Source: a virus
Direction: 5' to 3' (one strand)
Virus record (IMG/VR): IMGVR_UViG_3300009285_002085
DNA length: 40,691 nucleotides
Shown: positions 6,698 through 33,719 of the stretch, in pieces
How the letters are laid out: the number at the start of each line of letters is the position of its first letter
Numbering within the stretch: the stretch's first letter is position 1
Program-made: the position numbers and the translations under genes
Notes under the pieces: model-generated
What the model saw: only the letters and a program-made list of their open reading frames with translations
Database searches by the model: none
What the model was told of the DNA's origin: nothing

Positions 6698-7014
6698 TAC
6701 CCCCTCAACTCATATAACCACTGCCCATCCGTCCCCGGAACCGGCTGCGCCTTGACATCCATCAGGTGAGGTCGCAGGGCCTTTCTGATATCGGAAATCC
6801 TGCCAGTTGAGTTCAGCACGCACATATCGCGCACGATCTCGACATTCGTTACCGGGCCTTTCAAAAGACGCCCGTAGAGGCGGGCATTCTGGCTCCCCGG
6901 TTTAAACAAATCTTCAGGCATTGGACGCGTGAAACTAATCGAGGTCTGCGCCATTCTGCCAAGTTTGCCCAGACGCCGGGCATCGTCGATCTGGCTTTCC
7001 GTTAAAAGATTCAT
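6697..7014 (-). CDS. winged-helix/HTH-type DNA-binding protein (105 aa)
   Basis: Internal ATG at 7014 is preceded by GGAGGTGGGT and overlaps the upstream small-ORF stop (ATGA). The segment GPVTNVEIVRDMCVLNSTGRISDIRKAL is HTH-like. The longer 143-aa ORF start was rejected. Confidence 0.65.
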   Translation of the reverse strand: MNLLTESQIDDARRLGKLGRMAQTSISFTRPMPEDLFKPGSQNARLYGRLLKGPVTNVEIVRDMCVLNSTGRISDIRKALRPHLMDVKAQPVPGTDGQWLYELRG

Positions 7015-7154
7015 ACCCACCTCCCCGGCTTCTTGATCCAGCGACGATCCATGAGATGCAGGATTCCAAGGCCGATCACATGGACAATAATCACCCCACC
7101 AACCAAGGCCGTAACCAAAACCGCGCAAACAAAGATGTTCTCCGTGAAATCCAT
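7011..7154 (-). CDS. small single-pass membrane protein (47 aa), not in the ORF track
   Basis: ATG at 7154 is preceded by GGAGGGGG. Translation is MDFTENIFVCAVLVTALVGGVIIVHVIGLGILHLMDRRWIKKPGRWV. Its stop overlaps the next ATG. Confidence 0.5.
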   Translation of the reverse strand: MDFTENIFVCAVLVTALVGGVIIVHVIGLGILHLMDRRWIKKPGRWV

Positions 7155-7165
7155 ATCCCCCTCCA

Positions 7166-7372
7166 TTAGGTTTCTATGAAAAAATCGTTGGGCTCCTTGC
7201 CCAATGCTGCCGCAAGAACTTGGAGACTCGCCGTAGTCAGCGACCTATCCCCTGCGTTCTCCCAGTTCCATATTTGTTGTGGTGAGAAGTTTGTTTTTTT
7301 TGAAAGCTCCGTGATTGTGAGACCGACTTCCTCACGAAGTTTTTTGATTTGGCTGATCTGGAATTGTTTCAT
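7166..7372 (-). CDS. XRE/Cro-type helix-turn-helix transcriptional regulator
   Basis: 68 aa with LTITELSKKTNFSPQQIWNWENAG, a typical HTH_3 pattern. It is the first gene after a strong promoter. Confidence 0.85.
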   Translation of the reverse strand: MKQFQISQIKKLREEVGLTITELSKKTNFSPQQIWNWENAGDRSLTTASLQVLAAALGKEPNDFFIET

Positions 7373-7391
7373 TTATACCCCCTGTGATGGA

Positions 7392-7433
7392 GGTATAAAC
7401 AAACTAATTTACAATGTCAAGCATTATTTTTAA
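7392..7433 (-). promoter_or_regulatory. sigma70-like early promoter: -35 TTGACA at 7420..7415, 17-nt spacer, -10 TATACC at 7397..7392, with an A-rich upstream element
   Basis: Read on the reverse complement. The 19-nt core TTAAAAATAATGCTTGACA is identical to 36401..36419. Confidence 0.6.
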
Positions 7434-7438
7434 ATTTA

Positions 7439-7936
7439 TTAATTTATTTTTTTGATCTTCTTCGCCGGCGCCGGCACAACCCAGAACGGTTCAGATTCAA
7501 CTGTCTTAGTGATAATTCTTCCGTTCGGCCCGACTGGGTACCTGTATGTTCTGATCATTTTGTACTGTCCGTAGTCGGCGGCACGAGGGATTCTCAATGG
7601 GAAAACACAGGTCTGTTTTACGTTCAAAGGTTTGCTCGCCGGGGGGTCTACTGTGATTGTATAGACCACATAGTTTACAAGTTGGCAACTGATCGATGGA
7701 ATTATGTCCATCTTTTTTGTATAGGTTATCTGCCAGAAAAGGTCTTCTCCGGGATAAACTTTGGGGTTCAGGATTTTAACTTTCCCCTCAATTATAAGAG
7801 GCTCGAAGTTTCCATATTTCCAGTAGAGCCTTTCGCCCTGCTCTTCCAGAGCCAAAATAATCAACAGGAAGAGAATGATAAAAGAGAGCCATTTCAGTTT
7901 CGAAAATCCGTTAAAGTAATGTTTAATTTTTTCCAC
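7439..7936 (-). CDS. N-terminally membrane-anchored protein (165 aa), function unknown
   Basis: GTG start with GGAGG 6 nt upstream. TM segment LKWLSFIILFLLIILAL. Low-GC gene. Confidence 0.7.
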   Translation of the reverse strand: MEKIKHYFNGFSKLKWLSFIILFLLIILALEEQGERLYWKYGNFEPLIIEGKVKILNPKVYPGEDLFWQITYTKKMDIIPSISCQLVNYVVYTITVDPPASKPLNVKQTCVFPLRIPRAADYGQYKMIRTYRYPVGPNGRIITKTVESEPFWVVPAPAKKIKKIN

Positions 7937-8153
7937 GGTTCGCCTCCCGCTCCGCCCTTATGGCGGCTGCTACTTGTTTTCTGGTATCAATTTCATCCGC
8001 CTGATGCTTCTCGCAATCTACAATATCTACCTTTTTGTCCACCTTTTTTTTGAGTTCTTTATAGTCTTTGCGAATCTCAATAATCAGCCAGCATATAAAC
8101 CCTATCCCGGCGGCCCACGGGATAACTACTCCGGTATCGATGATTAATGGCAT
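7923..8153 (-). CDS. small membrane protein (76 aa) with a charged C-terminal tail
   Basis: RBS GGAGGAGG. TM segment VVIPWAAGIGFICWLIIEI followed by a K/E-rich helix. Low-GC gene. Confidence 0.65.
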   Translation of the reverse strand: MPLIIDTGVVIPWAAGIGFICWLIIEIRKDYKELKKKVDKKVDIVDCEKHQADEIDTRKQVAAAIRAEREANRGKN

Positions 8154-8220
8154 TCAACGCGTCCTCCTCCATCAAGTCTGTTAACTAAGATTCAAAGATT
8201 TACTCCCGTTAGATCAAATA

Positions 8221-18215: not shown

Positions 18216-18707
18216 TCAGTATTTCCCCGCCGCATAGTCGCTGTTTACTGTCTGAGATTTCAACTGGCCACCCTTGGCGCTTGCCGCGCCGGACAAGAGC
18301 GTGCTTCCCGCCTGAAAATAACTCGCCGTCATTGCTGTGCTGCCCTGCATTCTTGACAGATTCGCCGCGCTTCTATTCCGCGCTGCATTCACATCCCCGC
18401 CGTACCGGATCGCCAAAGCATCAAGCTCGCCTTGGGCGGCAGTGTCTTCCATCACCAAAAGCGGAGAACCGGCCATCTCAACGCCTGATTTCCCGTACAA
18501 GGCCCGTTGAGCGCTCAGCAGTTTCTTGACGCCTTCCCGGTGCATCTGTTCATCATACGCGGCCTTCTGTTGCGCTGCAATCGCGTTTTGTTCTGAAATA
18601 GCAGCATTCGTGTCAGCCGCCTTCTTCTGCTGCACCCCGGAATAAACCGTCCCGGCAGCGGCAACTGCAGCAGCGATCAGAGCATATGTTGCTGTAGCGT
18701 AAGCCAT
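18216..18707 (-). CDS. internal virion protein with an N-terminal hydrophobic helix (T7 gp14 position)
   Basis: ATG at 18707 follows AAGGAGG and forms an ATGA overlap with the GNAT stop. The N-terminus is MAYATATYALIAAAVAAAGTV. Confidence 0.6.
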   Translation of the reverse strand: MAYATATYALIAAAVAAAGTVYSGVQQKKAADTNAAISEQNAIAAQQKAAYDEQMHREGVKKLLSAQRALYGKSGVEMAGSPLLVMEDTAAQGELDALAIRYGGDVNAARNRSAANLSRMQGSTAMTASYFQAGSTLLSGAASAKGGQLKSQTVNSDYAAGKY

Positions 18708-19171
18708 CAGCAAACCTCCTTTTCATAGGCTACTTCCGCGACCGTGTAGCCAAGCCCCTCGTAAAGGGCCTTGTTTTCCCCTGCACGGAGATCGGCCAGA
18801 TGGGCAAGCCGAACGGCGGTTGCGTTCTTCATCTTCGCCCACGCCTCAAATGTGTTGATCAGAAGCCCGCCATAGCCCTTATGCCGACACTCCTTGTCCA
18901 CAAACCAGAAAACCTCTTGGGCGATCATCCGACCACTTAAGGGGTCGGGATAGCACATCCCGGAAATAATGCCGACGATAACCCCCTCTTCCTCAACGAC
19001 AAATATGCAGGCAAATCCGGAAGAAACAAACCCTTCCCAATTTGCTTTGACAGTGGCGATGTCGATATCGATCAGCGTCCGGCTGTGTTCATAGTATCCA
19101 CGAATCTTTTCAGCCAGCGCGTTCAGATCGTCGTTGTTCATCTCGCTTAGGTCAAGGGGCCTGATGTTCAC
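18707..19171 (-). CDS. GNAT-family N-acetyltransferase (copy 2)
   Basis: The core VGIISG...FWFVDKECRHKGYGGLLINTFEAWAK...LYEGLGY fits the acetyl-CoA binding pattern. The likely GTG start at 19171 overlaps the upstream stop (GTGA) with GGAGG upstream. An alternative ATG is at 19141. Confidence 0.75.
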   Translation of the reverse strand: MNIRPLDLSEMNNDDLNALAEKIRGYYEHSRTLIDIDIATVKANWEGFVSSGFACIFVVEEEGVIVGIISGMCYPDPLSGRMIAQEVFWFVDKECRHKGYGGLLINTFEAWAKMKNATAVRLAHLADLRAGENKALYEGLGYTVAEVAYEKEVC

Positions 19172-21885
19172 GTTATGCTTACCTCCGGTATGATGGCCAC
19201 CACGGTCAGCGGCATTGGTTTGTCCTGCACAATCATAATCCGCGCGTTCTTTTCCCACCTGTCATCGTATCCGATAGGCAAATCTCCCGTAAAAAGATCG
19301 TATGGCGCGCCAAGGGTAATAACCCGATCGCGGTCGACCAAAACATCAAGATTGCTCTCGTCTCTGCCCACCTTAAACGTCGCAGAGCGGTAAACCCGCA
19401 CGTTGACTTCATGTATCTTTTTCAGCCTGCCTTGCGCCGTTCCATCGCGCATAGCAGCCTCTAAACGCATGGGCTGAAGGATGCCTGTATATGCAAGCCC
19501 GGCATGCACTACCGTCGCGGCGGCGCTGAGGGTAATCTGTCCACTGGCCACAACCTTGCTTGTCTGAATGTTCCCATCGGCAAGAATTGCCACGGTTTCG
19601 CCTTCGAGGTGCGAAAGCCCGGTTATGGTGGAGGTCGAAGCGCCGTTGTAGGTAATCCCCGAGTCCACAAAGAAAGCATTCAGCCCCTTGTTTGTGATGT
19701 AATCCGCTGCGCTGTCATCGAATACGTCTTCCAGCATTTCAACATACCGGACAGTGACCCCATTGACGGTGCGTTTGATGACTGCCCAAAGTTCGTCATA
19801 ACCCGTTCCGGGAATAGTCGCCAGGCTTTCTACCTCGGCAGTTCCCATCGGATGGCGGTGCCAGCCGACAATGTCCTGCTCCCGTAGATAGGTCATCGCG
19901 ACCAGGGAGCCGTCGGTAAGAAACGCCCACAAGATCGACGCCGGTTCCTGCTGGTAGGCCATGCCTGCAATGCCGCTCTTCATAACATGTTCGGCGAGAA
20001 TTGTCAGATCGGGCGCGACGTAGCCGTTCGATTCCCATTGATAGGTAAATTCCCGAACCTTCTTGCCGGCGCGCTGCAGAAACAATGTCGATGAAGCCAC
20101 CGACTCGGGCATCAATGAGTAACAGCCAAACGCCGTCTGCTGTTTCGCAACCACGTTCAGAGGTGTAAGCGCTTGCCCGGTATCTTCGGGGCCTAAGCGC
20201 CATTCCGCGCCTGCCGTGCCGATGATCAGATATTCCCTCGGCTCAATCCACTGGATGACATTTACCTGTCGGCCGGCGAGGGTGAACTCGAATGAATCCG
20301 ACGCATCCACCCCCGGCATGAAGTTTTCATAATCGCCAACCACCGAGCCCCATATCGTTTCCGGATAGGCGCTCGACCCGGCAACGCACAGTCTTTCCTC
20401 AAAGAATGTACCGCAAGACGGATAACCATTCGTTGAATTCCAGACCTCGGCTTCCAATGTCCAGTTGACCGTTGCCGTTATCGGGTCGGGGGCGTCGGAT
20501 AACTCCTTGAGTATTTCCCCACTTACTTCAGTTGCGGACGTATAAGAGGTGATCTTTATAAACCCGCTGTAAATGCGGACATATTTGCCAACGTCAGAGC
20601 TGCGGAAAAGATCACCCGTCGCAGTGACAATCGAACTCTTGATATAATCAGGGTCTGGAGTCAGAACCGGACTTTTTGAGTCTGGATCGCTTCCGTCGCT
20701 CAGGCGGATATAGATCGTATCGTATCCGAGGGCGTCATTGTCGCCCCACGCCCACTGCGAAACCCCCAGCGTCCCCAGGGCGCCTTCTACAGATTCAACG
20801 CCGTTGATGTAGACCTTGTCGGGCTTGGTGGCAGAGTAAAACGTTGCGGTATTGACAATATAATATTCGGTAGTTCCCGACCCCGACAAAAGCCAGTTGT
20901 TGTCAGCATCAGTGGTGAGCAGGTTCGTAAAAGCCTCGGAGGCGCTGCTCGACGTGAGTGTGCAGATGCCGCCTGCAGGACTTGCGATAGAAGGCAGGAC
21001 GCTTCCATCCGGGCTTCCAAGCAGACTCCATGACTGCGACGCGATCGGCCCTACAGTGGGAAAATCGTCAATTATGTCGCACGTGACCTGTGTCGTGGAG
21101 TTGAATGAGATAATTGAGGCCCGGCCAACCCCGGAGGTAATCAGGCGATTAACATCCCCGGACTGGAACACGGCGGCGCCTGCGGTAAAAACTATGCCGC
21201 TACCAGTCGCGGCGGCAAGGGTCAGCGTCGTGGCGGGTTTTATCCCCTGTTCTTTTGTGGCAGGCGACCGGAAGTTGATTGTCGATAGCGTCCATGATGT
21301 ATGGCCGGTGCGGGAAAGTTTCCGGGGCGCATACTCGGGATGGAACAAATACAGTACATCAGCGCTCTGGCAATATTTTATCTCGGAAATATCCGCCTCA
21401 AGATATGGGGAGGGAATCTCATAGGCAAGATCGGTGGCGCCAGCTGAAACAACCCATTTTACGGCGGCAAGGTCTGTGGCAAAAGCCGCTGCCGCAGTAT
21501 GTGCAACGATACACCGATAATAACTGCCGGCATTCGTAACCAGCGCCCCCAGAGCGTACACCGTTCCCGTTACCCATGCCGCGTATGCAACCTGGATTCT
21601 CCCCTGATTGCGATAGAACCGGATGTACTGGTCGCCAAATTCGAGGATGTACGCCTGTGTCGTACTGAACTCGAAGGGCAGCAACCGGGACGCCTTGGCG
21701 TTCGTTTTCGTGCCGGCTATATAACGGAATCCCGGGCGGTAGTAAGCGGGGCCTCGGGGATCGATGACAAAATTCTCCATGCGGTAAGCTGCATTCTGGT
21801 ATTTTGCCAGATCGACACGCCCTTCGAGGCGATCACTCCATTCGCCGCCGGTAAAATTCGTCTGTATGAAATGCGCAGCGCTCAC
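19168..21885 (-). CDS. tail tubular protein B / nozzle (T7 gp12-like)
   Basis: The N-terminus NFTGGEWSDRLEGRVDLAKYQNAAYRMENFVIDPRGPAYYRPG parallels the T7 gp12 N-terminal pattern. Size is 905 aa and it sits directly after the gp11-like gene. It has a GTG start. Confidence 0.8.
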   Translation of the reverse strand: MSAAHFIQTNFTGGEWSDRLEGRVDLAKYQNAAYRMENFVIDPRGPAYYRPGFRYIAGTKTNAKASRLLPFEFSTTQAYILEFGDQYIRFYRNQGRIQVAYAAWVTGTVYALGALVTNAGSYYRCIVAHTAAAAFATDLAAVKWVVSAGATDLAYEIPSPYLEADISEIKYCQSADVLYLFHPEYAPRKLSRTGHTSWTLSTINFRSPATKEQGIKPATTLTLAAATGSGIVFTAGAAVFQSGDVNRLITSGVGRASIISFNSTTQVTCDIIDDFPTVGPIASQSWSLLGSPDGSVLPSIASPAGGICTLTSSSASEAFTNLLTTDADNNWLLSGSGTTEYYIVNTATFYSATKPDKVYINGVESVEGALGTLGVSQWAWGDNDALGYDTIYIRLSDGSDPDSKSPVLTPDPDYIKSSIVTATGDLFRSSDVGKYVRIYSGFIKITSYTSATEVSGEILKELSDAPDPITATVNWTLEAEVWNSTNGYPSCGTFFEERLCVAGSSAYPETIWGSVVGDYENFMPGVDASDSFEFTLAGRQVNVIQWIEPREYLIIGTAGAEWRLGPEDTGQALTPLNVVAKQQTAFGCYSLMPESVASSTLFLQRAGKKVREFTYQWESNGYVAPDLTILAEHVMKSGIAGMAYQQEPASILWAFLTDGSLVAMTYLREQDIVGWHRHPMGTAEVESLATIPGTGYDELWAVIKRTVNGVTVRYVEMLEDVFDDSAADYITNKGLNAFFVDSGITYNGASTSTITGLSHLEGETVAILADGNIQTSKVVASGQITLSAAATVVHAGLAYTGILQPMRLEAAMRDGTAQGRLKKIHEVNVRVYRSATFKVGRDESNLDVLVDRDRVITLGAPYDLFTGDLPIGYDDRWEKNARIMIVQDKPMPLTVVAIIPEVSIT

Positions 21886-23434: not shown

Positions 23435-23893
23435 TCATACCAGAAAAACATGATTCCCAATCTCTGCAACAACCTTCATCTTGTCATCCCACGTTACGCC
23501 GCCAAGGCCCGCCTTTGTCGCATACTGGCAACAATGGCTTGCCGCAATCTCGGGAGTCCGGGGAATGTTATAGCTCACCAGTCCCAGCGCGATCCCCCAG
23601 CAGCTATTCAGCGCCGCGTTGGTCGCGATCTCTTCATCCCACTGTTCGGCAATGTGCAGGAGCTTCCCGTAATTCGGGTCGTTCTCGTTGAAGCAGGAGA
23701 ACTGCCATTTCTTCAGGCAAACCTCCCGGATTGTCTTGCCGTCCCAATTTCGATGATCGACACGCTCAAGGATCACGCTTCCCACGGCAATTTGTCCCTC
23801 GACGCTTTCGCCTCGGGCCTCGCCGTAGATGGTAAGAGCCATGATCTGCGCGTCGGACAATTTCAGAAAAGACTTGTTATCGCTTACGCTCAT
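23435..23893 (-). CDS. endolysin, SleB/Hydrolase_2-type cell wall hydrolase
   Basis: IMALTIYGEARGESVEGQIAVGSVILERV is the characteristic SleB-family N-terminal motif. It is coupled (ATGA) to an upstream TM protein gene. Confidence 0.8.
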   Translation of the reverse strand: MSVSDNKSFLKLSDAQIMALTIYGEARGESVEGQIAVGSVILERVDHRNWDGKTIREVCLKKWQFSCFNENDPNYGKLLHIAEQWDEEIATNAALNSCWGIALGLVSYNIPRTPEIAASHCCQYATKAGLGGVTWDDKMKVVAEIGNHVFLV

Positions 23894-26405: not shown

Positions 26406-26684
26406 TTACAATTCCTCCTTGTCTGATTTTATGATCGGCTGTTTCATCAGCCGCATCGTGAATGCCTGCATGTTTTCAACTATAATGCCGCCACCGCCTA
26501 AAATGGCAAGCAATTTCATGGCCCAATTCCTAAGCGCAATCGCTTCCGCCGTTGCCGGGATAGGGTCGAATGCGCCCATGTCTCCAAGCATCCACATCAG
26601 GGTTGCCTGCCCCGTCCGGGTGGAAAACGTCTGCCGGGCCTGGGAAATGATCTCTTGATCGGCAAGGTTAAGCGGCTGCGGCAT
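26406..26684 (-). CDS. hypothetical protein (92 aa)
   Basis: ATG at 26684 has GGAGGG 7 nt upstream. The GTG at 26699 was rejected. Confidence 0.55.
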   Translation of the reverse strand: MPQPLNLADQEIISQARQTFSTRTGQATLMWMLGDMGAFDPIPATAEAIALRNWAMKLLAILGGGGIIVENMQAFTMRLMKQPIIKSDKEEL

Positions 26685-28368
26685 CTGGCATCCCTCCACT
26701 CAACGCTGCATCCAGACCTTGAGACAACTTTCCGCCCATGTTCCGATCGGCCTCGCTTGCCGTTTTCAATCCCTGCAATGCACTCATGGCGTCCTGCTGC
26801 TGCGACTCCAACTGCTGCGCTTGCATCCGGCCCTGCCGGATTTTTTCCACCGCCTCTTTTGGGCGTACGATCGCCGCGGGGACGCGGTTCGAATCAGCCA
26901 GCACCCGGCCAGCCTCATCGAGATCGAAGTTGTCAAGTACCTCTGGGTTGATATCTATAAGCGGCGCGATCTCTGCCATGAATTTTCTGATTCCGTCTTT
27001 CGAAAACCGCTCTCGCTGTGCCTGAGCCAAAGGCCCCATATAAACAGGGTCAAACCGCAGACTCCTGTCTTGCTGCCCCATCTCAATTAAGATATCCGGC
27101 ACCTTCGGCATGCGAGAAACGGACTGATTGGTTTCAATGTCATAAACCGAATCCAAGAGCCCATCAAGCGCCGTGTTGAAACTCCCCAGCTCCGCCCCCA
27201 AGACAGCCGCCTTCTCTGCCATCATCTCCGAAACTTCGTAGGCCGTGCGCTGCCCACCGTCCATCTGCGACAGCATCAGGAAGGTGTCAACATGGAAACG
27301 CTCCCGGATTGCCCGCTGTTTAGCCTGCTCCCGATCAACGCCGATCGGGAATGACGCCCCGGTATTGACCGGCGTGATCCGGTCGGATGGATTTTCCATG
27401 TAGTTCAACCCGCGAGGCTTGAGCTGTGTCTTGCCGAGTAGATACGAGGGCACGTTGTAAGCCGGGTCAATAGCCAGCTGCGCAGCGCCGAGAAGCGTCT
27501 TCGACATCAGGTTAATGCCCTTGATATCCGCCATTGCCAGCATTGCAGGGCTTAACCCGTAGGGCTCTTTCCCGGATTTCAGATATCGCCAGACATGATA
27601 GGGGAAAAGGCTATATCCGCCTTCTGCGCAGATATGGTTTCCGGCTGTCATCAGCCAGACCGAGGCGAAAGGTTTATTCTTCGCGTCCTGCTTCCGATCG
27701 TCGTATTCCACGCGGGGAAATACGGCATGGATTACCTCGAACTCTGTGAACGGGTTCGTCTCGTAAGCCTGCTTGACGGCATCGGTAACGTTATCCTTAC
27801 CGAACATCTCGACCATCTGCTTAGCCGACAGCTTGCGTTTCCGGTGCAGAACATCGACTTCGCCATATTTATTTTCCGCGATGAATATCTCTCCGGGATG
27901 ACAGGCCTCGAAAACAATCCGCTCTTTGGCGATATCCTCTTGCGCGTACATCGCCGCAGTGCCGAGAGTGAATCCGTCATAGATGTAAGACCACATCTCA
28001 TTGTAGAAATTCGACCTGTTTAAGGCCATGTACATGTTGAACTCAATTTCATCCAGCCAGACGCCAACCTCGGGAAGCGTGTTCACCTTCTTACGGTTCA
28101 TCTGGTACTTGAACCAGGCAAACGCGGGGCTGACGTGATAGCCGTGAATGCCATCCGTGGCCAGAACGGCGGCGCCGACGGCAGTGCCGTCGTAAATCTT
28201 TGTCCCCTTCCGTTCGCCCTTCATCAGGACGCCGCGGATATCGTCCCGGTAAGGACTGACATAATCCGCGACATCCTGCATGCGGTCATTGAAGTTGGCC
28301 TTGTCGGTTTCAAGTTTGTTCTGCCGACTCATCACCAGCGTCTTTAGTTTTTGATCTTGCTCGATCAT
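26668..28368 (-). CDS. portal / head-to-tail connector protein (T7 gp8-like)
   Basis: The start MIEQDQKLKTLVMSRQNKLETDKANFNDRMQDVADYVSPYRDD and a Q/A/M-rich C-terminal tail resemble the gp8 family. It precedes the scaffold and capsid genes. The upstream 42-codon extension lacks an RBS. Confidence 0.85.
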   Translation of the reverse strand: MIEQDQKLKTLVMSRQNKLETDKANFNDRMQDVADYVSPYRDDIRGVLMKGERKGTKIYDGTAVGAAVLATDGIHGYHVSPAFAWFKYQMNRKKVNTLPEVGVWLDEIEFNMYMALNRSNFYNEMWSYIYDGFTLGTAAMYAQEDIAKERIVFEACHPGEIFIAENKYGEVDVLHRKRKLSAKQMVEMFGKDNVTDAVKQAYETNPFTEFEVIHAVFPRVEYDDRKQDAKNKPFASVWLMTAGNHICAEGGYSLFPYHVWRYLKSGKEPYGLSPAMLAMADIKGINLMSKTLLGAAQLAIDPAYNVPSYLLGKTQLKPRGLNYMENPSDRITPVNTGASFPIGVDREQAKQRAIRERFHVDTFLMLSQMDGGQRTAYEVSEMMAEKAAVLGAELGSFNTALDGLLDSVYDIETNQSVSRMPKVPDILIEMGQQDRSLRFDPVYMGPLAQAQRERFSKDGIRKFMAEIAPLIDINPEVLDNFDLDEAGRVLADSNRVPAAIVRPKEAVEKIRQGRMQAQQLESQQQDAMSALQGLKTASEADRNMGGKLSQGLDAALSGGMPDAAAA

Positions 28369-28399: not shown

Positions 28400-30427
28400 C
28401 TACGGGGTCTGCTGCGTCCAGGTTCCGGTGTACGATGTAGCAATCCAGTTGGTTCCATCCACCGCGACAAGACAAAGGGCTTCACCAACAGCATTTGCCG
28501 TCCAGTATTCAGCCGCGTCGCCGGCTGTCCCCGCGATATTGATAACGTCCCCCGCTGCGGGGGTTACCCTAAGTTCCTGGGCCGCCATGACCACGAAGCA
28601 GTAGTTCAATCCTGCAACCGCTGCCGGAAGGGTCTGTGCGGCGGGGGCTCCTGAACCCGCATTTGTCAAGACAATTCCACTCTCTGCGGCAAGAACAGCG
28701 TGGGCATCAGTGTCGTCGGTGACTGTTTTCAAGAATCCGCCCAGGGCCGCTGTACCGTCGCCGGTAATCGCGTCGCCGGTCGTAATCCCCGAAGATGCGT
28801 TCAGGGCTATCCCTCCTGCAGTTGCCGTCAGAGTAATGGCCCCCGCATCAGTTCCCTGAGTGTTTGTGACGACTATGGTTTCAGCAACACCCTGATTTGT
28901 TGTGAGTGCGATTGCCGAGGCTCCTGTGGTCTTCGAAGAGATAAGAACCTGCCCGCCAGCTATGTCCACATCTTTGCCGGTTGCTGCGTCAATGTTCACA
29001 CCACCCGCCGAGGACAGCAAGGTGATTGCACTTTCTGACGTTCCCTGAGTGTTGGTGACAGTAATCGTCTCAGAGGTTCCAATGTTCGCGGTAAGGGAGA
29101 TGGCCCCAGCCGCATCGTCTTTGGAAACAAGCTTTACCTGTCCACCCGCAATATCTACGTCTTTAGCTGCGGCAGCGTCAACATTCACACCACCTGCGGT
29201 AGACAAAAGGGTAATTGCACTTTCGCTTGTCCCCTGAGTATTAGTCACAACGATGGTTTCCGACACGCCAATATTCGCCGTCAAAGAAATGGCGCTGGCT
29301 GCGTCGTCCTTGCTTACAAGGGCAACCTGTCCGCCTGCAATGTTGACATCCTTTGCGGCAGCTGCGTCAATATCAACACCGCCCGCGGTAGCCAATGCCT
29401 TGATCGCATCTTCTCCCGTTCCCGCTGAAGAAAGAATCACACTGGAATCGTTTGCCCCCGTGACGGAAATGGTCAAATCGTCGGCAGCGCCGTCAGACGC
29501 CAGCGTGATTGTCATCGCTTCCCCGGCGGTTCCTGTGATGTCCGCGATCCCGGTAAGCGCCCCCGTTGTCGAAATATCCCAAGTGGTGGAGTTTACGGCT
29601 ACGGTCTCGTCGCCGTCGCCAATGGCCACCGCAATAACGTCCCCATTGGTCAGTGTAATCCCCGGCCTGTAGGTCGTGTTGTCAACGTCGTATGCTTGAA
29701 TCAGCATAGTTTCGGCGGTCGTCGTGCTGGACTTGATCCCTTTGGTAGTGGCAAAGGTCGCGTCGCCGGTCAGCGCCATCGAGGCAACCCCGGAGAAGGC
29801 TCCCGCCGATGATACGTCCCAAGAAGAGGTCGCAACCGCAACCGTGCTTGTCCCATCACCAAGCGTTGTGGCCCCGGTAACGCCGAAGCTCGCGGAACTC
29901 AGCGCCCCCGAGAAGGCTCCGGACGCCGCCGTGATCGCACCTGCCTTCGTAACGTACCACGTCCCGGAAGTCCCGTTGATGTCATACCCGGTTCCGGCGT
30001 TGGTGATCTGAAATGCATCCCCGGTGCCTGCCGTCTTGTTGATGAAAAATGTATCGTTGCTGGCATGGCTGCCATTGAGCTGCACCGCGCCCTGGTCTAC
30101 CGTGATAGTCCTGCCTGCTCCCGCTCCACCCTGATCATAGGACGCATCGAGGGTATTACCGGACCCGACCGTCAGCAGATTTGTCGCAGTACCAGCCGAA
30201 TCTTTGAAGAAAAGTGCGGTCGTGGCCGCTCCATCGTCTGCGATATAGAGACGCCCCTTGTTTGCCGCGGGATTGCCCGGCGCTGAAATTTCGGGAAATT
30301 CCAGGTATGACCGGAACTCCACGGGCTTGTAATAATGCATATCGTCTGTGACGTTCCCGGCCAGCGCCGGAGACGCCGTGACAATCAGCATCAGGTAAAC
30401 CGACAACCATGCAATATACTTTTTCAT
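28400..30427 (-). CDS. exported beta-helix-like repeat protein (675 aa) with a Sec signal peptide
   Basis: MKKYIAWLSVYLMLIVTASPALA|GN shows n-h-c regions and an AxA site. AAGGAGG lies 7 nt upstream. It has three 63-aa tandem repeats and is rich in G/T/A/S. Confidence 0.8.
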   Translation of the reverse strand: MKKYIAWLSVYLMLIVTASPALAGNVTDDMHYYKPVEFRSYLEFPEISAPGNPAANKGRLYIADDGAATTALFFKDSAGTATNLLTVGSGNTLDASYDQGGAGAGRTITVDQGAVQLNGSHASNDTFFINKTAGTGDAFQITNAGTGYDINGTSGTWYVTKAGAITAASGAFSGALSSASFGVTGATTLGDGTSTVAVATSSWDVSSAGAFSGVASMALTGDATFATTKGIKSSTTTAETMLIQAYDVDNTTYRPGITLTNGDVIAVAIGDGDETVAVNSTTWDISTTGALTGIADITGTAGEAMTITLASDGAADDLTISVTGANDSSVILSSAGTGEDAIKALATAGGVDIDAAAAKDVNIAGGQVALVSKDDAASAISLTANIGVSETIVVTNTQGTSESAITLLSTAGGVNVDAAAAKDVDIAGGQVKLVSKDDAAGAISLTANIGTSETITVTNTQGTSESAITLLSSAGGVNIDAATGKDVDIAGGQVLISSKTTGASAIALTTNQGVAETIVVTNTQGTDAGAITLTATAGGIALNASSGITTGDAITGDGTAALGGFLKTVTDDTDAHAVLAAESGIVLTNAGSGAPAAQTLPAAVAGLNYCFVVMAAQELRVTPAAGDVINIAGTAGDAAEYWTANAVGEALCLVAVDGTNWIATSYTGTWTQQTP
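28851..29417 (-). repeat. three tandem 189-bp (63-aa) coding repeats
   Basis: GTTCCCTGAGTGTTTGTGAC, GTTCCCTGAGTGTTGGTGAC and GTCCCCTGAGTATTAGTCAC recur at 28851, 29040 and 29229. The protein repeats read GGV(D/N)(I/V)DAA..KDV.IAGGQV..VSKDDAA.AISLTANIG.SETI.VTNTQGTSESAITLLS.A. Confidence 0.9.
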
Positions 30428-30441
30428 TTCAAATCCTCCTT

Positions 30442-30885
30442 TTAGTGATACCAAAATTCAACTGCCAGTTGCCCGGCTCCATTTCTCGCTTGCACAACCA
30501 CGGGGTTCTGCGCTGCTGCCGTGCTGACACAAATTTTGGCGTTGGCACAGGCTACCCCGACTACTACGTTTGCCGTCCCACGGATCAGCGACACATTGCC
30601 ATCCGACCCGACCTCAAACTCCGCACTCTCGGAAATTACACCTGCTGCGGAAACCCGGACAAATCCATGCCCGGAGTAATTTGCGGTAATCGTGGGAAGT
30701 GTCACAGACCCCTCATCATCGACCGCAGTTGCCGATGACCAGTATGTCCCCCCATTGATTGTTACCGAGGACGCGGATATTGCGCCCAGCGCCCCGGTGT
30801 TGATTCCCTGTGTGATCGGAGGCCCAGCCCATACTGAGCCCGTGATCAGGATCAGGATTATCAGAAGTGAAAGTAGTTTTCTCAT
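30442..30885 (-). CDS. exported protein (147 aa) with a Sec signal peptide
   Basis: MRKLLSLLIILILITGSVWA|GPP. RBS AGGGGG. Confidence 0.75.
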   Translation of the reverse strand: MRKLLSLLIILILITGSVWAGPPITQGINTGALGAISASSVTINGGTYWSSATAVDDEGSVTLPTITANYSGHGFVRVSAAGVISESAEFEVGSDGNVSLIRGTANVVVGVACANAKICVSTAAAQNPVVVQARNGAGQLAVEFWYH

Positions 30886-30893
30886 AGCGCCCC

Positions 30894-31373
30894 CTACTTC
30901 GACAGCAACAGCTTAACAGTTCCGGTGGCGCTGACAACGCTCTGGCCCGTAATCACCAGAGTAAGCGCCCCGTCGACCAGCGATCCGCCATAGAGCGAGG
31001 CCGTCGCGTCCAGTTTAGGGATGACCCGCTCCGTTGCTGTTGCCGATCTATTTGCCAACTGACCGCCGGCAATATCGAACCCGCTGGCATCGTTGATGAC
31101 AATGTCGTACAGGGTAGTCGGCGCCACCGACCCGGGATCCGTTTCAATCGCGTAGACATACCAGCCGGAAATCTCCGTCGTGATCGCGGCGTTGGTCGCC
31201 GTCGACGGTACGGTTCCGTTCGCTGCATCGCCAGTCCATGAAAATGTCACCGCTTTCATGTTACCGTTGGGATAGCTCTTGATTGCCTGGGTCACCGATC
31301 CGGCAGCGTCGGCCTGGCAGGCGAGGAACACAAGCGCCATCAGGATCAGAATTGCCGTGAATAGTCTTTTCAT
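30894..31373 (-). CDS. exported protein (159 aa) with a Sec signal peptide
   Basis: MKRLFTAILILMALVFLACQADA|AGS. RBS AAGGGGG. Confidence 0.75.
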   Translation of the reverse strand: MKRLFTAILILMALVFLACQADAAGSVTQAIKSYPNGNMKAVTFSWTGDAANGTVPSTATNAAITTEISGWYVYAIETDPGSVAPTTLYDIVINDASGFDIAGGQLANRSATATERVIPKLDATASLYGGSLVDGALTLVITGQSVVSATGTVKLLLSK

Positions 31374-31407: not shown

Positions 31408-31608
31408 TCAAACCCGCTCTTCCCGTCTACATCCGCCGCGCTCGCCGTAGCCTGCACCTTGATTATACAAGGGCCGGGGAACGATGGCGGTAGCGGGTTC
31501 CGGCATTGTGGTCTGGATCGGATTGTCAGCGCTAACCGGAGAACCCTTATAGTTTTTGATATCTACCGGCTGCGTTGCCAACGGCACTTTTTGATTTCTG
31601 CTGCTCAT
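31408..31608 (-). CDS. hypothetical protein (about 66 aa)
   Basis: ATG at 31608 lies 2 nt after the upstream stop (or GTG at 31614). The RBS is weak. Confidence 0.45.
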   Translation of the reverse strand: MSSRNQKVPLATQPVDIKNYKGSPVSADNPIQTTMPEPATAIVPRPLYNQGAGYGERGGCRREERV

Positions 31609-31610
31609 CG

Positions 31611-31802
31611 TCACTGTCCCAAAAGCGTCTTTTTTGTTCCAGGGTCTTCAAGCCCCAGACCGGATGTCAGGATGGTTGAGCTTCTACCTTTGCGCAACCT
31701 TGCCAGCGCCCGTTCTTTTTCCATCGAGGCCTGCACATCAGCATCACTCACCTTGGGAGCCGGGGTCGCCGGCGCTACGTTACCGCCACCACCAAAACAC
31801 AT
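31611..31802 (-). CDS. hypothetical small protein (63 aa)
   Basis: TGATG overlap with the GNAT stop. It has a Gly-rich N-terminus MCFGGGG and a C-terminal RKGRSSTILTSGLG...KKTLLG motif that I recall from small podovirus proteins. Unverified. Confidence 0.55.
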   Translation of the reverse strand: MCFGGGGNVAPATPAPKVSDADVQASMEKERALARLRKGRSSTILTSGLGLEDPGTKKTLLGQ

Positions 31803-32245
31803 CAGCGTACCTCCATCATCAACTGAACTCCACTTTTCCGGAAGCCCATGTCTTCATAGAATTTGGCCACATACTCATTATCGATTCCCGCTGTGACTCC
31901 AACCAGGATAACCCTCACCCCCCGAGCTTTTGCCCATCGGATGTAATCGGTCACCATTCTGATTGCCGCAATGCCCCGGTTGTCGGGCTTGAGATACAAA
32001 ACGTAGTCAGCCGCGATCAACTCATCCGAAAACGCGGGTTGATAAACCGACCCGCCCATCACACCGACAATCTCGCCGTCGACGACGTAGACCACTGCAT
32101 AGCCATTTGCCATTGCGTCCCGGCAGGTCTCAGCGACCCGGCGAGGAGAATACAACAGCTCCCGGTAATTCGGGCTCTCGCTATGCATCTCGCGCAGGAG
32201 ATCGACCACGGCGGGGATATCGGCTTCTGTCATGTGTCTAAGCAT
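31802..32245 (-). CDS. GNAT-family N-acetyltransferase (copy 1)
   Basis: IVGVMGG...LYLKPDNRGIAAIRMVTDYIRWAK...FYEDMGF. ATG at 32245 has GGAG 8 nt upstream. The 180-aa longest ORF was rejected. Confidence 0.75.
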   Translation of the reverse strand: MLRHMTEADIPAVVDLLREMHSESPNYRELLYSPRRVAETCRDAMANGYAVVYVVDGEIVGVMGGSVYQPAFSDELIAADYVLYLKPDNRGIAAIRMVTDYIRWAKARGVRVILVGVTAGIDNEYVAKFYEDMGFRKSGVQLMMEVR

Positions 32246-33719
32246 CGAACGGGCTCCATTCTGCAGCTTCAGTGATGTTCTTCTGCTGACCACGCGTTCC
32301 GGCCTTTTTGTCCACCGGATAGGCAAAGGACAATGCCAGTGCATCGGCCCGGTTTGGTGAGGGAACTCTCCGCTTCTTCATGTCCTTCTTTGATTCGATT
32401 TGAATTTTACCATCCAAACGCGGAACCGTCTCAGGCCCGATTAGGTCATCATGAAGGACGTTATCCTCCGGGATTGCCCCACCTTCCTTCAGCCAGTCGC
32501 GCATCAGCTTCCACATTTCGGCGCGTTTGTTGATACACCCATTATCGGTCGATTTTTCTGCAAACCAGACGAGCCGCCAGTGGTTACGCTTCAAAACCTT
32601 CCCAGCGCTAACAATCCCCGTTCCATAGCCGGCATCAATAAAAACAGCGTCCGCCCCCTGTTCGTCCTCCAGGTTCGCAAGGAGCGTTGCGATGGTGATG
32701 TCATTGTCGTTTTTGGCTATTGTGCGGAGGATCTTGAAAACGAGCCCTTGCCGGAGGCCGATAACTAATTCGTCGTCGCCTTCCCAGGCGGGATCACAGG
32801 TCAGAATCTTCGGCGCGAACATATACTGTTCCGGCCTGATCGATTTTCCAAAAGCCTTATCCACGTCCTCCAGAGAAATGAACTGTTTTACCGACAGGGA
32901 GGGGAACATCCCGCGAACACGAACCTTGACAAAATCGCTATCAACACCATAGTCGTCAATCCATTCCTGGATTTTAGCTTTATTGGCTATCATGCAGGAA
33001 CGGGAATCTATCTGCCGGGTAATCCAACGATGACGGAATCGGCCAAAACATTCCTTAAATCGACCAGTGTTCCGCGTGGGATTACCGAAGGCCCCCCAAA
33101 TGATTTCAGTTTCGCTGTCCAGCATGGCGCCCTCAGCCACCTCCCAGATAACATCGGGAATGGATGACGCCTCATCGAACAGTAATAGTACCCGCTTCCC
33201 CTCGTTGTGCAGCCCGGCAAACGCCTCAGTGTTTGTTTCCGACCAAGGGACTGCATCTGTGCGCCAGGTCTTTTCGTGATCCTTGGCGACAGAAAATATC
33301 GCTGTGGCTGTCACCGTGAACCAATGGCGATTAATGGCTAAGCGGTGCCATTTTGCGAGTTCTGGCCATGTCTTTGTCCGTAGCTGGGATTCGGTATTTG
33401 CTGTTACTACGCCACGGGTATCCTCCCTGGTACTCATCGCCCACAGTATTAACCAGGCTACCAACGCTGACTTGCCGATATCGTGTCCCGAGGCGGTCGC
33501 GATCTGGATCGCCTGTTGTAGAGAAATTAACCCGGCGCCTATGTCGTTCAAAACATCAATTTGCCAGCTGTCGGGGCCTTGGTGATTTTTTAGCTCACCA
33601 CTCCCCCAAGGGAAGGCATACAGAACATACCCGAGTGGATTCTTGGAGAATCCAGCAATGTCCTCGATTAACTCTAACTCTGGGTCAATCCTTTGTGCGT
33701 TCCCTTGATGCACGCTCAC
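32238..33719 (-). CDS. terL: terminase large subunit
   Basis: Walker A-like ATASGHDIGKS, Walker B VLLLFDEAS, and a C-terminal nuclease-like region with conserved acidic residues. It is preceded by a small-subunit-sized gene. GTG start. Confidence 0.9.
   Translation of the reverse strand: MSVHQGNAQRIDPELELIEDIAGFSKNPLGYVLYAFPWGSGELKNHQGPDSWQIDVLNDIGAGLISLQQAIQIATASGHDIGKSALVAWLILWAMSTREDTRGVVTANTESQLRTKTWPELAKWHRLAINRHWFTVTATAIFSVAKDHEKTWRTDAVPWSETNTEAFAGLHNEGKRVLLLFDEASSIPDVIWEVAEGAMLDSETEIIWGAFGNPTRNTGRFKECFGRFRHRWITRQIDSRSCMIANKAKIQEWIDDYGVDSDFVKVRVRGMFPSLSVKQFISLEDVDKAFGKSIRPEQYMFAPKILTCDPAWEGDDELVIGLRQGLVFKILRTIAKNDNDITIATLLANLEDEQGADAVFIDAGYGTGIVSAGKVLKRNHWRLVWFAEKSTDNGCINKRAEMWKLMRDWLKEGGAIPEDNVLHDDLIGPETVPRLDGKIQIESKKDMKKRRVPSPNRADALALSFAYPVDKKAGTRGQQKNITEAAEWSPFDA

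What the first reader, a model, noticed from the sequence alone, without database searches (positions are those of the whole stretch)
28400..31373. Three consecutive Sec-signal-peptide proteins between terminase and portal
The genes at 30894..31373, 30442..30885 and 28400..30427 each start with a textbook n-h-c signal peptide and an AxA-type cleavage site: MKRLFTAILILMALVFLACQADA|A, MRKLLSLLIILILITGSVWA|G and MKKYIAWLSVYLMLIVTASPALA|G. Each has a strong RBS. They sit inside the head-morphogenesis part of the late operon and share its GC content. Virion components assemble in the cytoplasm and normally lack export signals. These are therefore either exported late proteins (cell-surface remodelling, adhesin-like, or exclusion functions expressed with the virion genes), or an unusual class of structural proteins whose hydrophobic leader has another role. 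The largest is a beta-helix-like repeat protein resembling adhesins.
Basis: partly seen in the sequence, partly recalled or inferred. Interest (0 to 1): 0.72.

Follow-up and report, generated by a model that had tools for sequence, protein, structure and literature searches.

The report
Phage fibre proteins carrying export signals
In this uncultured short-tailed phage the three genes between terminase and portal, and also the phage's own tailspike, are fibre-type proteins that begin with cleavable secretion signals, which suggests that the outer fibres of the virus are made outside the cytoplasm and join the particle only at lysis.

Summary
Genes A (30894..31373), B (30442..30885) and C (28400..30427) each start with an n-h-c leader ending in a small-x-small site, have strong RBSs, and sit tightly packed between TerL and portal.

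The phage's canonical tailspike (8834..11134) carries the same kind of leader. These four are the only strong leader candidates among 45 genes.

All four are fibre-type proteins:
- C models as a triple-beta-helix-like shaft plus knob; its best fold match is a phage capsid spike.
- B is a short fibre with a tip domain that also occurs on collagen-like fibres.
- A is a jelly-roll domain.

In each family, leaderless relatives start exactly at the predicted cleavage site. Conserved cysteine pairs occur almost only in leader-bearing members. In the tailspike adaptor, 67 of 80 leader-bearing members have the pair against 4 of 70 leaderless ones.

Best reading: the leaders are real Sec signals. The peripheral fibres would be exported, cleaved and oxidatively folded in the periplasm, and would meet the cytoplasmic core particle at lysis. 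That step is inferred, not shown.

The main rival is that the trio are exported non-virion proteins, for example receptor masking. I found no precedent. The host is unknown.

The parts
30894..31373 (-). Gene A, 159 aa. A leader (aa 1-23) is followed by a jelly-roll beta-sandwich domain with the conserved motif TNPG..APT.LYD..D..G.D..GG.LANRSATATE.
   Evidence: ORF and RBS. It has 71 homologues, 56 of them with a leader. The AF2 model has pLDDT 95, with helix 2-18 followed by a beta-sandwich. PDB fold hits are weak (E >= 1e-3): phage capsid accessory chains, CBMs and Ena pili. There is no Pfam or PHROG hit.
31305..31373 (-). Leader of A: MKRLFTAILILMALVFLACQADA, predicted cleavage A|AGSVTQ.
   Evidence: Leaderless family members start MAGTVTQ / MAGEVTQ, which is the predicted mature N-terminus. 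The Cys is not in a lipobox context and is not conserved.
30442..30885 (-). Gene B, 147 aa. A leader (aa 1-20) is followed by the conserved GPPITQGINTGALGAI segment and a C-terminal fibre-tip domain with a C-x5-C pair (Cys113, Cys119).
   Evidence: Longer homologues insert fibre-shaft repeats (ITDTGLTASLPVFTDGSKVLTS). Leaderless homologues have collagen-like N-termini (P0221 carries PF01391). The Cys pair is present in 22/25 leader-bearing members and in 0/6 complete leaderless members in which the tip segment could be located.
30826..30885 (-). Leader of B: MRKLLSLLIILILITGSVWA, predicted cleavage A|GPPITQ.
28400..30427 (-). Gene C, 675 aa. In order: a leader (aa 1-23), the N-terminal motif NVTDDMHYYKPVEF, the beta-hairpin motif EISAPGNPAANKGRLY, a long repeat shaft (three ~62-aa repeats), and a C-terminal beta knob (aa ~586-675) with co-varying Cys610/Cys652.
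   Evidence: More than 448 homologues. AF2 model. Foldseek PDB best hit is the Pa223 capsid spike 9ny6_C (E 2.9e-5), followed by CBA120 TSP4 and tailspike depolymerases. BFVD hits are fibre proteins of uncultured phages. Some distant homologues carry PF13884. The two knob Cys are always both present or both absent.
30359..30427 (-). Leader of C: MKKYIAWLSVYLMLIVTASPALA, predicted cleavage A|GNVTDD.
   Evidence: The leaderless homologue P0053 starts within about one residue of the equivalent mature N-terminus.
8834..11134 (-). Tailspike / tail fibre, 766 aa. A leader (aa 1-20) is followed by an epsilon15/T7-type tail-docking adaptor (aa 21-~150, with Cys33/Cys93) and a beta-helix-like body.
   Evidence: The PHROG tail-fibre adaptor match begins right after the leader. 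The start ATG at 11134 has a GGGGG RBS. Relatives begin M-TVS without a leader in 74/76 IMG/VR loci. In GenBank phages all listed matches begin at query residue 19-28, that is, after the leader.
11075..11134 (-). Leader of the tailspike: MKRIVGVIWLLLLMAVPAFA, predicted cleavage A|TVSVETT.
32238..33719 (-). Large terminase (context).
31802..32245 (-). GNAT acetyltransferase, conserved next to TerL in relatives (context).
31611..31802 (-). Conserved 63-aa protein (phrog_831), context.
31408..31608 (-). 66-aa ORF. It is the N-terminal remnant of a 275-aa leaderless protein found in relative L087 (context).
26668..28368 (-). Portal (T7-type head-tail connector), context.

Best explanation
A, B and C are accessory fibre/spike-type proteins of a BPP-1/epsilon15-like podophage. 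Like the phage's own tailspike, each is made with a cleavable Sec (type I) signal peptide.

Proposed sequence of events:
1. Late in infection the four proteins are translocated across the inner membrane of a diderm host.
2. Signal peptidase I cuts at the small-x-small site. This gives the same mature N-termini that leaderless relatives have.
3. Their cysteine pairs are oxidised in the periplasm, and the proteins fold and trimerise there.
4. The core particle (capsid, portal, tail tube, internal proteins) has no leaders and is built in the cytoplasm.
5. The two pools meet only when the holin opens the inner membrane, so fibre attachment would be the last, extracytoplasmic assembly step.

Shown by sequence comparison: the leaders, their precise junction with the mature domain, the fibre-like nature of the proteins, and the link between leader and cysteine pair.

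Inferred: actual export and cleavage, disulfide formation, attachment of A, B and C to the virion (head or tail), and the timing of attachment.

A possible rationale is that disulfide-stabilised fibres can only be oxidised enzymatically in the periplasm if the habitat is anoxic. The related contigs come from assemblies whose MAG bins are named after anaerobic taxa. This rationale is speculation.
For: 1. Only four of 45 genes have strong leaders, and all four are fibre-type: A, B, C and the tailspike.

2. Tailspike junction. The window and its two closest IMG/VR relatives read leader-A.A|TVS. The other 74 of 76 relatives start M-TVS at exactly that position. GenBank phage homologues also align from about residue 21.

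3. The same junction rule holds in the other families. Leaderless A members start MAGTVTQ. The leaderless C homologue P0053 starts at the equivalent mature position, in the same gene slot of a related phage.

4. Cysteine pairs follow the leader.
- Tailspike adaptor: among the 150 best 50%-identity cluster representatives, 80 have a leader. Of those, 67 have both Cys33 and Cys93, 13 have neither, and none has only one. Of the 70 without a leader, 4 have both, 23 have one and 43 have none. Fisher p = 4e-24. The association recurs in many separate clades of a rough NJ tree.
- B tip: the C-x5-C pair is in 22/25 leader-bearing members and in 0/6 complete leaderless members in which the tip segment could be located.
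- C knob: the two Cys are always both present or both absent. The pair is present in 14 of 24 members scored as leader-bearing, plus P0080, whose leader lies behind a mis-called start (15 of 25). It is present in 0/4 complete leaderless members.
- A: seven members have two Cys near the mature N-terminus, and all seven are leader-bearing.

5. The A-B-C trio with leaders is conserved in the same order in the closest relative, L087. More distant relatives (portal 36-47% identical) also carry leader-bearing proteins next to the portal or MCP genes. Some of these have N-termini like C or known C-family members (L088, L089).

6. The genes are translationally packed in the late operon with no sign of a promoter or terminator of their own.

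7. The endolysin (PF07486) has no leader, so lysis should need a hole-forming holin. This is inference.
Against: - There is no experimental evidence of export, cleavage or virion incorporation.
- No trained signal-peptide predictor was run.
- Attachment of tailed-phage fibres outside the cytoplasm has no precedent that I know of or could find. It would seem inefficient because of dilution at lysis.
- The host is unknown, so a diderm envelope is only inferred from the T7-type internal virion proteins and the peptidoglycan hydrolase.
- 13 of 80 leader-bearing adaptors and 10 leader-bearing C knobs lack the Cys pair, so disulfides cannot be the whole reason for the leader.
- No docking site on the virion is known for A, B or C. 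The fold matches are modest: TM-scores of 0.14-0.40 for the best hits.
- The cysteine statistics are not properly corrected for phylogeny.
Confidence: 0.5

Rival explanations
1. A, B and C are exported but never join the virion. They would be fibre/RBP-derived periplasmic or surface proteins that bind the host's own receptor or envelope glycans. Their role would be to block superinfection and stop progeny from re-adsorbing to lysed-cell debris, analogous in function to T5 Llp, or otherwise to remodel the envelope.
For: - The leaders look functional.
- RBP-like folds could bind surface structures.
- The content of the slot is modular and variable between relatives: A plus a 204-aa protein without C in L004, C alone in L002, and four leader proteins in L084. 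This is typical of accessory genes.
- No virion docking domain was recognised in A, B or C.
Against: - The tailspike, which has a recognised tail-docking adaptor and is the only obvious receptor-binding protein, carries the same leader and the same Cys-pair signature. A leader therefore does not mark a protein as non-virion in this phage.
- The genes sit in the late structural operon without a promoter of their own.
- A leaderless C homologue sits in the same slot in L081.
- The conserved mature N-terminal motifs (GPPITQGIN..., ..D.M.F..PV..) look like attachment segments.
- There is no lipobox or membrane anchor, unlike the known exclusion proteins.
Confidence: 0.27
2. The hydrophobic N-termini are not export signals. 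They would be retained helices of cytoplasmically assembled virion fibres, for example for docking in the particle or for inserting into the host membrane at infection.
For: - All four proteins are fibre-type, and virion proteins normally assemble in the cytoplasm.
- AF2 models the leaders as helices.
Against: - The leaders have the full n-h-c layout, with h-regions of 12-16 residues and small residues at -3/-1. They end exactly where leaderless homologues start.
- Leader sequences are not conserved beyond their composition, whereas the residues just after the site are.
- Cysteine pairs track the leader, which makes sense only for an oxidising compartment.
Confidence: 0.08
3. The trio are morons or lysogenic-conversion genes, like lambda lom and bor. 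They would be surface proteins expressed from a prophage for the benefit of the host and merely lodged in the late region.
For: - There is precedent for signal-peptide proteins inside late operons: Lom (PMC12309495).
- BPP-1 and epsilon15-type phages are temperate (own knowledge).
Against: - The GC content matches the neighbours.
- There is no promoter or terminator of their own.
- The genes are tightly spaced with RBSs like those of the neighbouring genes.
- The folds are fibre folds, not an OM beta-barrel or a lipoprotein.
- No integrase was seen in the window, and no prophage copies were found among 185,579 species genomes. The only hits were phage-length MAG contigs.
Confidence: 0.05
4. 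Annotation artefact: the real start codons lie downstream and the leaders are not translated.
For: None beyond the general possibility.
Against: - Strong RBSs lie 5-8 nt before the leader ATGs.
- There is no in-frame start codon at the junction.
- The leaders are conserved in composition across hundreds of homologues with diverged DNA.
Confidence: 0.02

Closest known systems
Epsilon15 gp20 / T7 gp17-type tailspike and tail-fibre proteins (N-terminal tail-docking adaptor)
   Same: The window's tailspike has this adaptor domain (PHROG tail-fibre families, E down to 5e-37). It aligns to epsilon15-group, Ralstonia-phage and pelagiphage tail fibres, and it sits at the end of a T7/epsilon15-like structural module.
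   Different: All listed deposited phage homologues align only from the residue after the window's leader. The IMG/VR relatives whose start I inspected begin M-TVS with no leader. The window's clade adds a 20-aa Sec-type leader and a Cys pair inside the adaptor.
Pseudomonas phage Pa223 capsid spike gp52 (PDB 9ny6; bioRxiv 10.1101/2025.06.11.659172)
   Same: This is the best PDB fold match of C (Foldseek E 2.9e-5). Both have a short N-terminal attachment segment, a triple-beta-helix-type shaft and a C-terminal knob. Both are accessory spikes of a podophage. C is encoded next to the head genes.
   Different: TM-score is low (0.14/0.30) and sequence identity is 12%. gp52 is built from residue 2 in the virion, and the paper does not mention a signal peptide. 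C is more than twice as long. Whether C sits on the capsid is unknown.
Filamentous-phage coat proteins pIII and pVIII (Inoviridae)
   Same: These are virion proteins, including the receptor-binding protein, that are made with cleavable Sec leaders and matured outside the cytoplasm before joining the particle. pIII needs periplasmic disulfide formation. (Own knowledge.)
   Different: Inoviruses assemble at the membrane and are extruded without lysis. Here the particle is a tailed, DNA-packaging capsid that must be built in the cytoplasm. There is no homology.
Lambda Lom/Bor, and T5 Llp or Cor-type exclusion lipoproteins
   Same: These are phage-encoded proteins with signal peptides, sometimes lodged among tail genes. 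They act at the host envelope.
   Different: They are an OM beta-barrel or lipoproteins with a lipobox, they are expressed from their own promoters or early, and they are not fibre-like. None of these features is present here.
SAR endolysins, the antiholin RI and spanins (lysis proteins with signal or signal-anchor sequences)
   Same: These are late phage proteins that use the Sec system.
   Different: A, B and C have no muralytic domain, no lipobox and no coiled-coil periplasmic domain. They are not next to the endolysin at 23435..23893.

Membership tests
Sec-dependent type I (SPase I-cleaved) signal peptide | Positively charged n-region | tested here: met
   MKR-, MRK-, MKK- and MKR- in A, B, C and the tailspike. 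The same is seen in homologues.
Sec-dependent type I (SPase I-cleaved) signal peptide | Uncharged hydrophobic h-region of about 7-16 residues, shorter than a membrane anchor | tested here: met
   Uncharged stretches of 14-16 residues with mean Kyte-Doolittle 2.2-2.9. These are the most hydrophobic segments of A, B and C.
Sec-dependent type I (SPase I-cleaved) signal peptide | c-region with small residues at -3 and -1 | tested here: met
   ADA|A, VWA|G, ALA|G and AFA|T. The site coincides with the start of leaderless homologues.
Sec-dependent type I (SPase I-cleaved) signal peptide | Not a lipoprotein (lipobox) signal and not a Tat (twin-arginine) signal | tested here: met
   There is no RR motif. 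The only Cys near a site (FLAC in A) does not fit L-[AS]-[GA]-C and is not conserved.
Sec-dependent type I (SPase I-cleaved) signal peptide | Positive call by a trained predictor; experimental export and cleavage | not testable with these tools
   SignalP and DeepTMHMM are not available and there are no wet-lab data. Indirect support comes from the cysteine-pair covariation.
Epsilon15/T7-type tailspike or tail fibre (the fourth gene) | N-terminal tail-docking adaptor domain | tested here: met
   phrog_1640 E 5e-37, plus 11 further PHROG families, six of them annotated tail protein, tail fiber or tail spike. The match starts right after the leader. Alignment.
Epsilon15/T7-type tailspike or tail fibre (the fourth gene) | Position at the distal end of the structural module, after the internal virion proteins | tested here: met
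   Gene order: portal, scaffold, MCP, cement, tubular A/B, internal proteins, tailspike.
Trimeric phage fibre/spike (triple beta-helix shaft plus knob), e.g. Pa223 gp52 | Fold similarity of shaft and knob | tested here: inconclusive
   The top PDB and BFVD hits are phage spikes and fibres (E 2.9e-5 and 2e-13). TM-scores are low (<=0.3 over long alignments), and the monomer model of the shaft has no regular secondary structure.
Trimeric phage fibre/spike (triple beta-helix shaft plus knob), e.g. Pa223 gp52 | Homotrimer; presence in the virion | not testable with these tools
   Only monomer prediction was available. There is no proteomics.
Moron / lysogenic-conversion surface protein (lambda Lom/Bor type) | Own promoter and terminator; deviant base composition | tested here: not met
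Moron / lysogenic-conversion surface protein (lambda Lom/Bor type) | OM beta-barrel or lipoprotein architecture | tested here: not met
   The models and homologies are fibre-like or jelly-roll, and there is no lipobox.
Spanins / SAR lysis proteins | Lipobox (o-spanin), coiled-coil periplasmic domain (i-spanin) or muralytic domain (SAR endolysin); location in the lysis cassette | tested here: not met
   The proteins are beta-rich and have no Pfam or PHROG lysis hit. The endolysin is 5 kb away.

The most novel reading that the evidence does not exclude
A large, uncultured clade of podophages builds its core particle in the cytoplasm. It sends all of its peripheral fibres (the tailspike plus accessory head- or tail-associated fibres) through the Sec system, so that they are cleaved and disulfide-bonded in the periplasm. 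Virion assembly would then be completed outside the cytoplasm at lysis. This would be a two-compartment assembly pathway not described for tailed phages.
Probability: 0.4. Interest if true: 0.88.

Novelty: new variant of a known kind. Interest (0 to 1): 0.78.

Why it matters
Tailed-phage assembly is regarded as wholly cytoplasmic. If receptor-binding fibres are routinely exported in a widespread phage clade, several things follow.
- It would define a new last step of assembly.
- It would explain how phages from anoxic habitats could obtain disulfide-stabilised fibres.
- It would remove fibre proteins from the reach of cytoplasmic sensors and proteases.
- It would change annotation practice. 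A signal peptide is commonly taken as evidence against a structural role, and in viromics it is used to flag 'auxiliary' or 'host-interaction' genes.
- It would affect heterologous production of such tailspikes, which would need periplasmic expression.

The leader-plus-cysteine-pair signature is also a simple marker that can be surveyed across metagenomes.

Tried and rejected
- **Annotation.** Pfam, PHROG and PDB sequence searches of A, B and C gave nothing useful. The only PDB 'hit' of A was an antibody light-chain construct matched over A's leader and first strands.
- **GenBank phages.** No DNA relative of the region. No protein match for C or B. A had one weak hit, to Methanosarcina virus MetMV. 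That protein is leaderless and lies in what looks like a tail or fibre region, next to a ~3000-aa protein.
- **Host assignment failed.**
  - The portal found no close relative in 185,579 species genomes.
  - A portal profile found only phage-length contigs binned into unrelated MAGs: Methanoperedens, Methanolobus, Syntrophaceae, Spirochaetes and Oscillospiraceae.
  - I rejected an archaeal host because of the PF07486 peptidoglycan hydrolase and the Shine-Dalgarno usage.
- **Lipoprotein, spanin, SAR and Tat readings** were considered and rejected (see the membership tests).
- **Promoter and terminator scan** showed no moron signature.
- **Total cysteine content** of exported versus core proteins was uninformative. 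Only position-specific pairs carried signal.
- **Co-occurrence.** I could not test whether leader-bearing tailspikes co-occur with leader-bearing A/B/C beyond the window. Loci are capped at +/-10 kb and the two regions lie 17 kb apart. IMG/VR held few C relatives.
- **Literature.** Six searches found no report of Sec leaders on tail fibres.

Full report
**1. The observation**

The window is a nearly complete ~40.7-kb podophage genome, with almost all genes on the minus strand.

| Gene | Coordinates | Length | N-terminus | RBS |
|---|---|---|---|---|
| A | 30894..31373 | 159 aa | MKRLFTAILILMALVFLACQADA\|AGS | AAGGGGG |
| B | 30442..30885 | 147 aa | MRKLLSLLIILILITGSVWA\|GPP | AGGGGG |
| C | 28400..30427 | 675 aa | MKKYIAWLSVYLMLIVTASPALA\|GNV | AAGGAGG |

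- Each RBS lies just upstream of its start codon.
- In each protein the leader is the most hydrophobic segment.
- The genes are 8 and 14 nt apart. GC equals that of the flanks, and there is no excess of promoter-like or terminator-like sites.
- Upstream lie TerL (32238..33719), a GNAT gene and two small ORFs. Downstream lies a T7-type portal (PF12236, E 2e-109).

The leader calls rest on rules, not on a trained predictor.

**2. The phage**

The structural module is of the T7/epsilon15/BPP-1 type. In order it contains:
- portal, scaffold and MCP;
- a Bbp16-like cement protein;
- a PF07486 cell-wall hydrolase;
- tubular proteins A and B;
- a second GNAT;
- three internal virion proteins;
- a tailspike whose N-terminal domain matches PHROG tail-fibre adaptor families.

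No deposited phage is close at the DNA level.

**3. A fourth leader, on the tailspike**

A rule-based scan of 45 minus-strand genes gave four strong leader candidates: A, B, C and the tailspike gene.
- The tailspike's real start is the ATG at 11134, behind a GGGGG RBS.
- The N-terminus reads MKRIVGVIWLLLLMAVPAFA|TVSVETT.
- The PHROG adaptor match begins immediately after this leader.
- Among 76 IMG/VR relatives of the adaptor, 74 start M-TVS(T/S) with no extension. Only the two closest (73% and 62% identity) have a leader, and their A-x-A site falls exactly where the others start.
- All listed GenBank phage homologues (epsilon15 group, Ralstonia phages, pelagiphages) align from residue 19-28.

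A protein that must dock on the tail therefore carries the same kind of leader as A, B and C. Cleavage would recreate the canonical N-terminus.

**4. What A, B and C are**

*C*
- It has more than 448 homologues in metagenomes. Distant ones carry the PF13884 tail-fibre chaperone domain.
- The AF2 model (pLDDT 73) has a leader helix, a long shaft without regular monomer secondary structure, and a confident C-terminal beta knob.
- The best PDB match is the capsid spike gp52 of phage Pa223 (E 2.9e-5), followed by CBA120 TSP4 and tailspike depolymerases. gp52 is a trimer with an N-terminal attachment segment, a triple beta-helix and a knob.
- BFVD matches are fibre proteins of uncultured phages, Mtd-N, collagen-repeat and lambda Stf-repeat proteins.

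*B*
- It has a C-terminal tip domain that also ends leaderless, collagen-like fibre proteins.
- Longer leader-bearing versions insert typical shaft repeats.

*A*
- It models with pLDDT 95 as a leader helix plus a jelly-roll sandwich.
- Fold matches are weak: phage capsid accessory chains, CBMs and Ena pili.
- A leaderless relative lies next to a ~3000-aa protein in Methanosarcina virus MetMV, in what looks like a tail or fibre region. Another lies in a P22-portal-type phage.

All three are fibre-module proteins, not bacterial adhesins.

**5. Conservation and modularity**

| Locus | Relationship | Gene order in the slot |
|---|---|---|
| L087 | closest relative; C 76% identical | TerS, TerL, GNAT, 63 aa, 275 aa, A, B, C, portal; A, B and C all have leaders |
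| L004 | related podophage | A plus a 204-aa leader protein, whose mature N-terminus resembles C's; no C |
| L001, L002 | related podophages | C homologue after the portal; L001 also has an A-like leader protein |
| L081 | related podophage | leaderless C homologue in the same slot, starting at the equivalent mature position |

More distant relatives (portal 36-47% identical) also carry leader-bearing proteins beside the portal or MCP genes. Some of them have N-termini like C or like known C-family members (L088, L089).

With the crude predictor, leaders are present in 78/120 C, 56/71 A and 25/33 B homologues. Leaderless A members start MAGTVTQ, which is the predicted mature end.

The leader therefore behaves as a module that is added to, or lost from, the exact N-terminus of an otherwise equivalent protein.

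**6. Evidence that the leaders work: cysteine pairs**

*Tailspike adaptor.* An exhaustive phmmer search found 28,624 homologues at E <= 1e-3. The 150 best 50%-identity cluster representatives split as follows:

| | Both Cys33 and Cys93 | One only | Neither | Total |
|---|---|---|---|---|
| With leader | 67 | 0 | 13 | 80 |
| Without leader | 4 | 23 | 43 | 70 |

- One of the four leaderless proteins with both Cys is a truncated leader call.
- Fisher p = 4e-24, not corrected for phylogeny.
- On a rough NJ tree of the mature domain the association recurs in many separate clades.

*Other families.*
- B tip: the C-x5-C pair is in 22/25 leader-bearing members and in 0/6 complete leaderless members in which the tip segment could be located.
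- C knob: the two Cys are always both present or both absent. They are present in 14 of 24 members scored as leader-bearing, plus P0080, whose leader lies behind a mis-called start (15 of 25). They are present in 0/4 complete leaderless members.
- A: seven members have two Cys near the mature N-terminus, and all seven are leader-bearing.

Strictly paired cysteines that appear with a leader are what one expects if the leader delivers the protein to an oxidising compartment.

**7. Mechanism proposed**

Shown:
- The leaders have full Sec type I anatomy.
- They have a precise junction with the mature domain.
- The proteins are fibre-type.
- Leader and Cys pair are coupled.
- No core-particle gene has a leader.

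Inferred:
- The four proteins are exported late.
- They are cut by signal peptidase I.
- They are oxidised, folded and trimerised in the periplasm.
- They attach to the cytoplasmically built particle once the holin opens the inner membrane.

Two points fit this model. The endolysin has no leader, so a hole-forming holin is expected. Fibre addition is the last assembly step in T7-type phages (own knowledge), which makes a late, separate supply of fibres feasible.

Why export at all is unknown. Possible reasons:
- enzymatic disulfide formation where no oxygen is available (the MAG bins that hold related contigs are named after anaerobic taxa);
- avoidance of cytoplasmic sensors or proteases;
- avoidance of premature interactions.

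All three are speculative.

**8. Rivals**

- *Exported, non-virion proteins (receptor masking, anti-readsorption, envelope remodelling).* This remains plausible for A, B and C (0.27). Their docking site is unknown and the slot is modular. However, a leader does not mark a protein as non-virion in this phage, because the tailspike has one too.
- *Retained hydrophobic helix (0.08).* Contradicted by the junction and by the cysteine data.
- *Lom/Bor-type moron (0.05).* Contradicted by composition, spacing, fold and the absence of signals.
- *Mis-annotated start (0.02).* Contradicted by the RBSs and by conservation.

**9. Comparison with what is known**

The nearest functional analogy is the filamentous-phage coat, where pIII and pVIII have Sec leaders and mature in the periplasm. 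That is a different kind of virus, with membrane-associated extrusion.

Signal peptides in tailed phages are known for lysis proteins, exclusion lipoproteins and morons. The features that define those groups were tested and are not met here.

I found no report of Sec leaders on tail fibres or tailspikes in six full-text searches. All listed homologous adaptors in 50,697 deposited phage records aligned only from after the window's leader.

**10. Verdict**

- As sequence features these are a new variant of known things: phage fibres plus Sec leaders.
- The implied two-compartment assembly pathway would be new for tailed phages. I give it about 0.4.
- Main weaknesses: no predictor or experiment, unknown host, modest fold matches, and statistics not corrected for phylogeny.

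Noticed in passing
window 31408..31614 (-); L087 8218..9045: The 66-68-aa ORF just upstream of gene A (MSSRNQK...) is the N-terminal remnant of a 275-aa leaderless protein that sits at the same place in the closest relative. The window phage appears to have lost most of this gene.
   Followed up: partly
window 31802..32245 (-) and 18707..19258 (-): Two GNAT acetyltransferase genes lie inside the structural module. The one next to TerL is conserved at that position in relatives L004, L081 and L087. Their targets are unknown.
   Followed up: partly
window 31611..31802 (-): A conserved 63-aa protein (phrog_831) starts MCFGGGG (MCGGGGG in L087, MCGGSYP in L004) and has an RKGRSSTILTSGLG motif. It is always found between TerL/GNAT and the portal region. 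Its function is unknown.
   Followed up: no
window 11145..16469 (-): The 1774-aa internal virion protein carries an ART-PolyVal ADP-ribosyltransferase domain (aa 473-582). This suggests an injected enzyme.
   Followed up: no
window 19168..21885 (-): Tail tubular protein B has a CBM_5_12 carbohydrate-binding insertion (aa 103-134). The same weak hit is seen in relative L087.
   Followed up: no
window ~7000..10000: A low-GC island (0.39-0.44 against ~0.53). It covers the C-terminal part of the tailspike, a 138-aa ORF (8407..8823), three small membrane proteins (7923..8153, 7439..7936, 7011..7166) and what looks by eye like a helix-turn-helix protein (7166..7372). It looks like a horizontally exchanged receptor-binding, lysis or accessory region.
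   Followed up: no
window 90..941, 1262..4836 (-): A PAPS-reductase-like gene and an SbcC/SbcD-like nuclease pair lie at the left end of the genome.
   Followed up: no
L004 1..669: A related phage contig carries an IS605 OrfB/TnpB (Cas12f-like) gene.
   Followed up: no
L001 5823..5990: A relative encodes a 55-aa protein with a lipobox-like N-terminus (MKRAIYLFFVLLICG|C) between terminase and portal. This is another envelope-targeted small protein in the same slot.
   Followed up: no
L089, L092 (genome contigs); L097 (MetMV): Phage-length contigs of this group are binned into Methanoperedens and Methanolobus MAGs. A's only GenBank hit is a Methanosarcina virus. This is probably a binning artefact plus a widespread domain, since the window encodes a peptidoglycan hydrolase. 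The host remains unresolved.
   Followed up: partly
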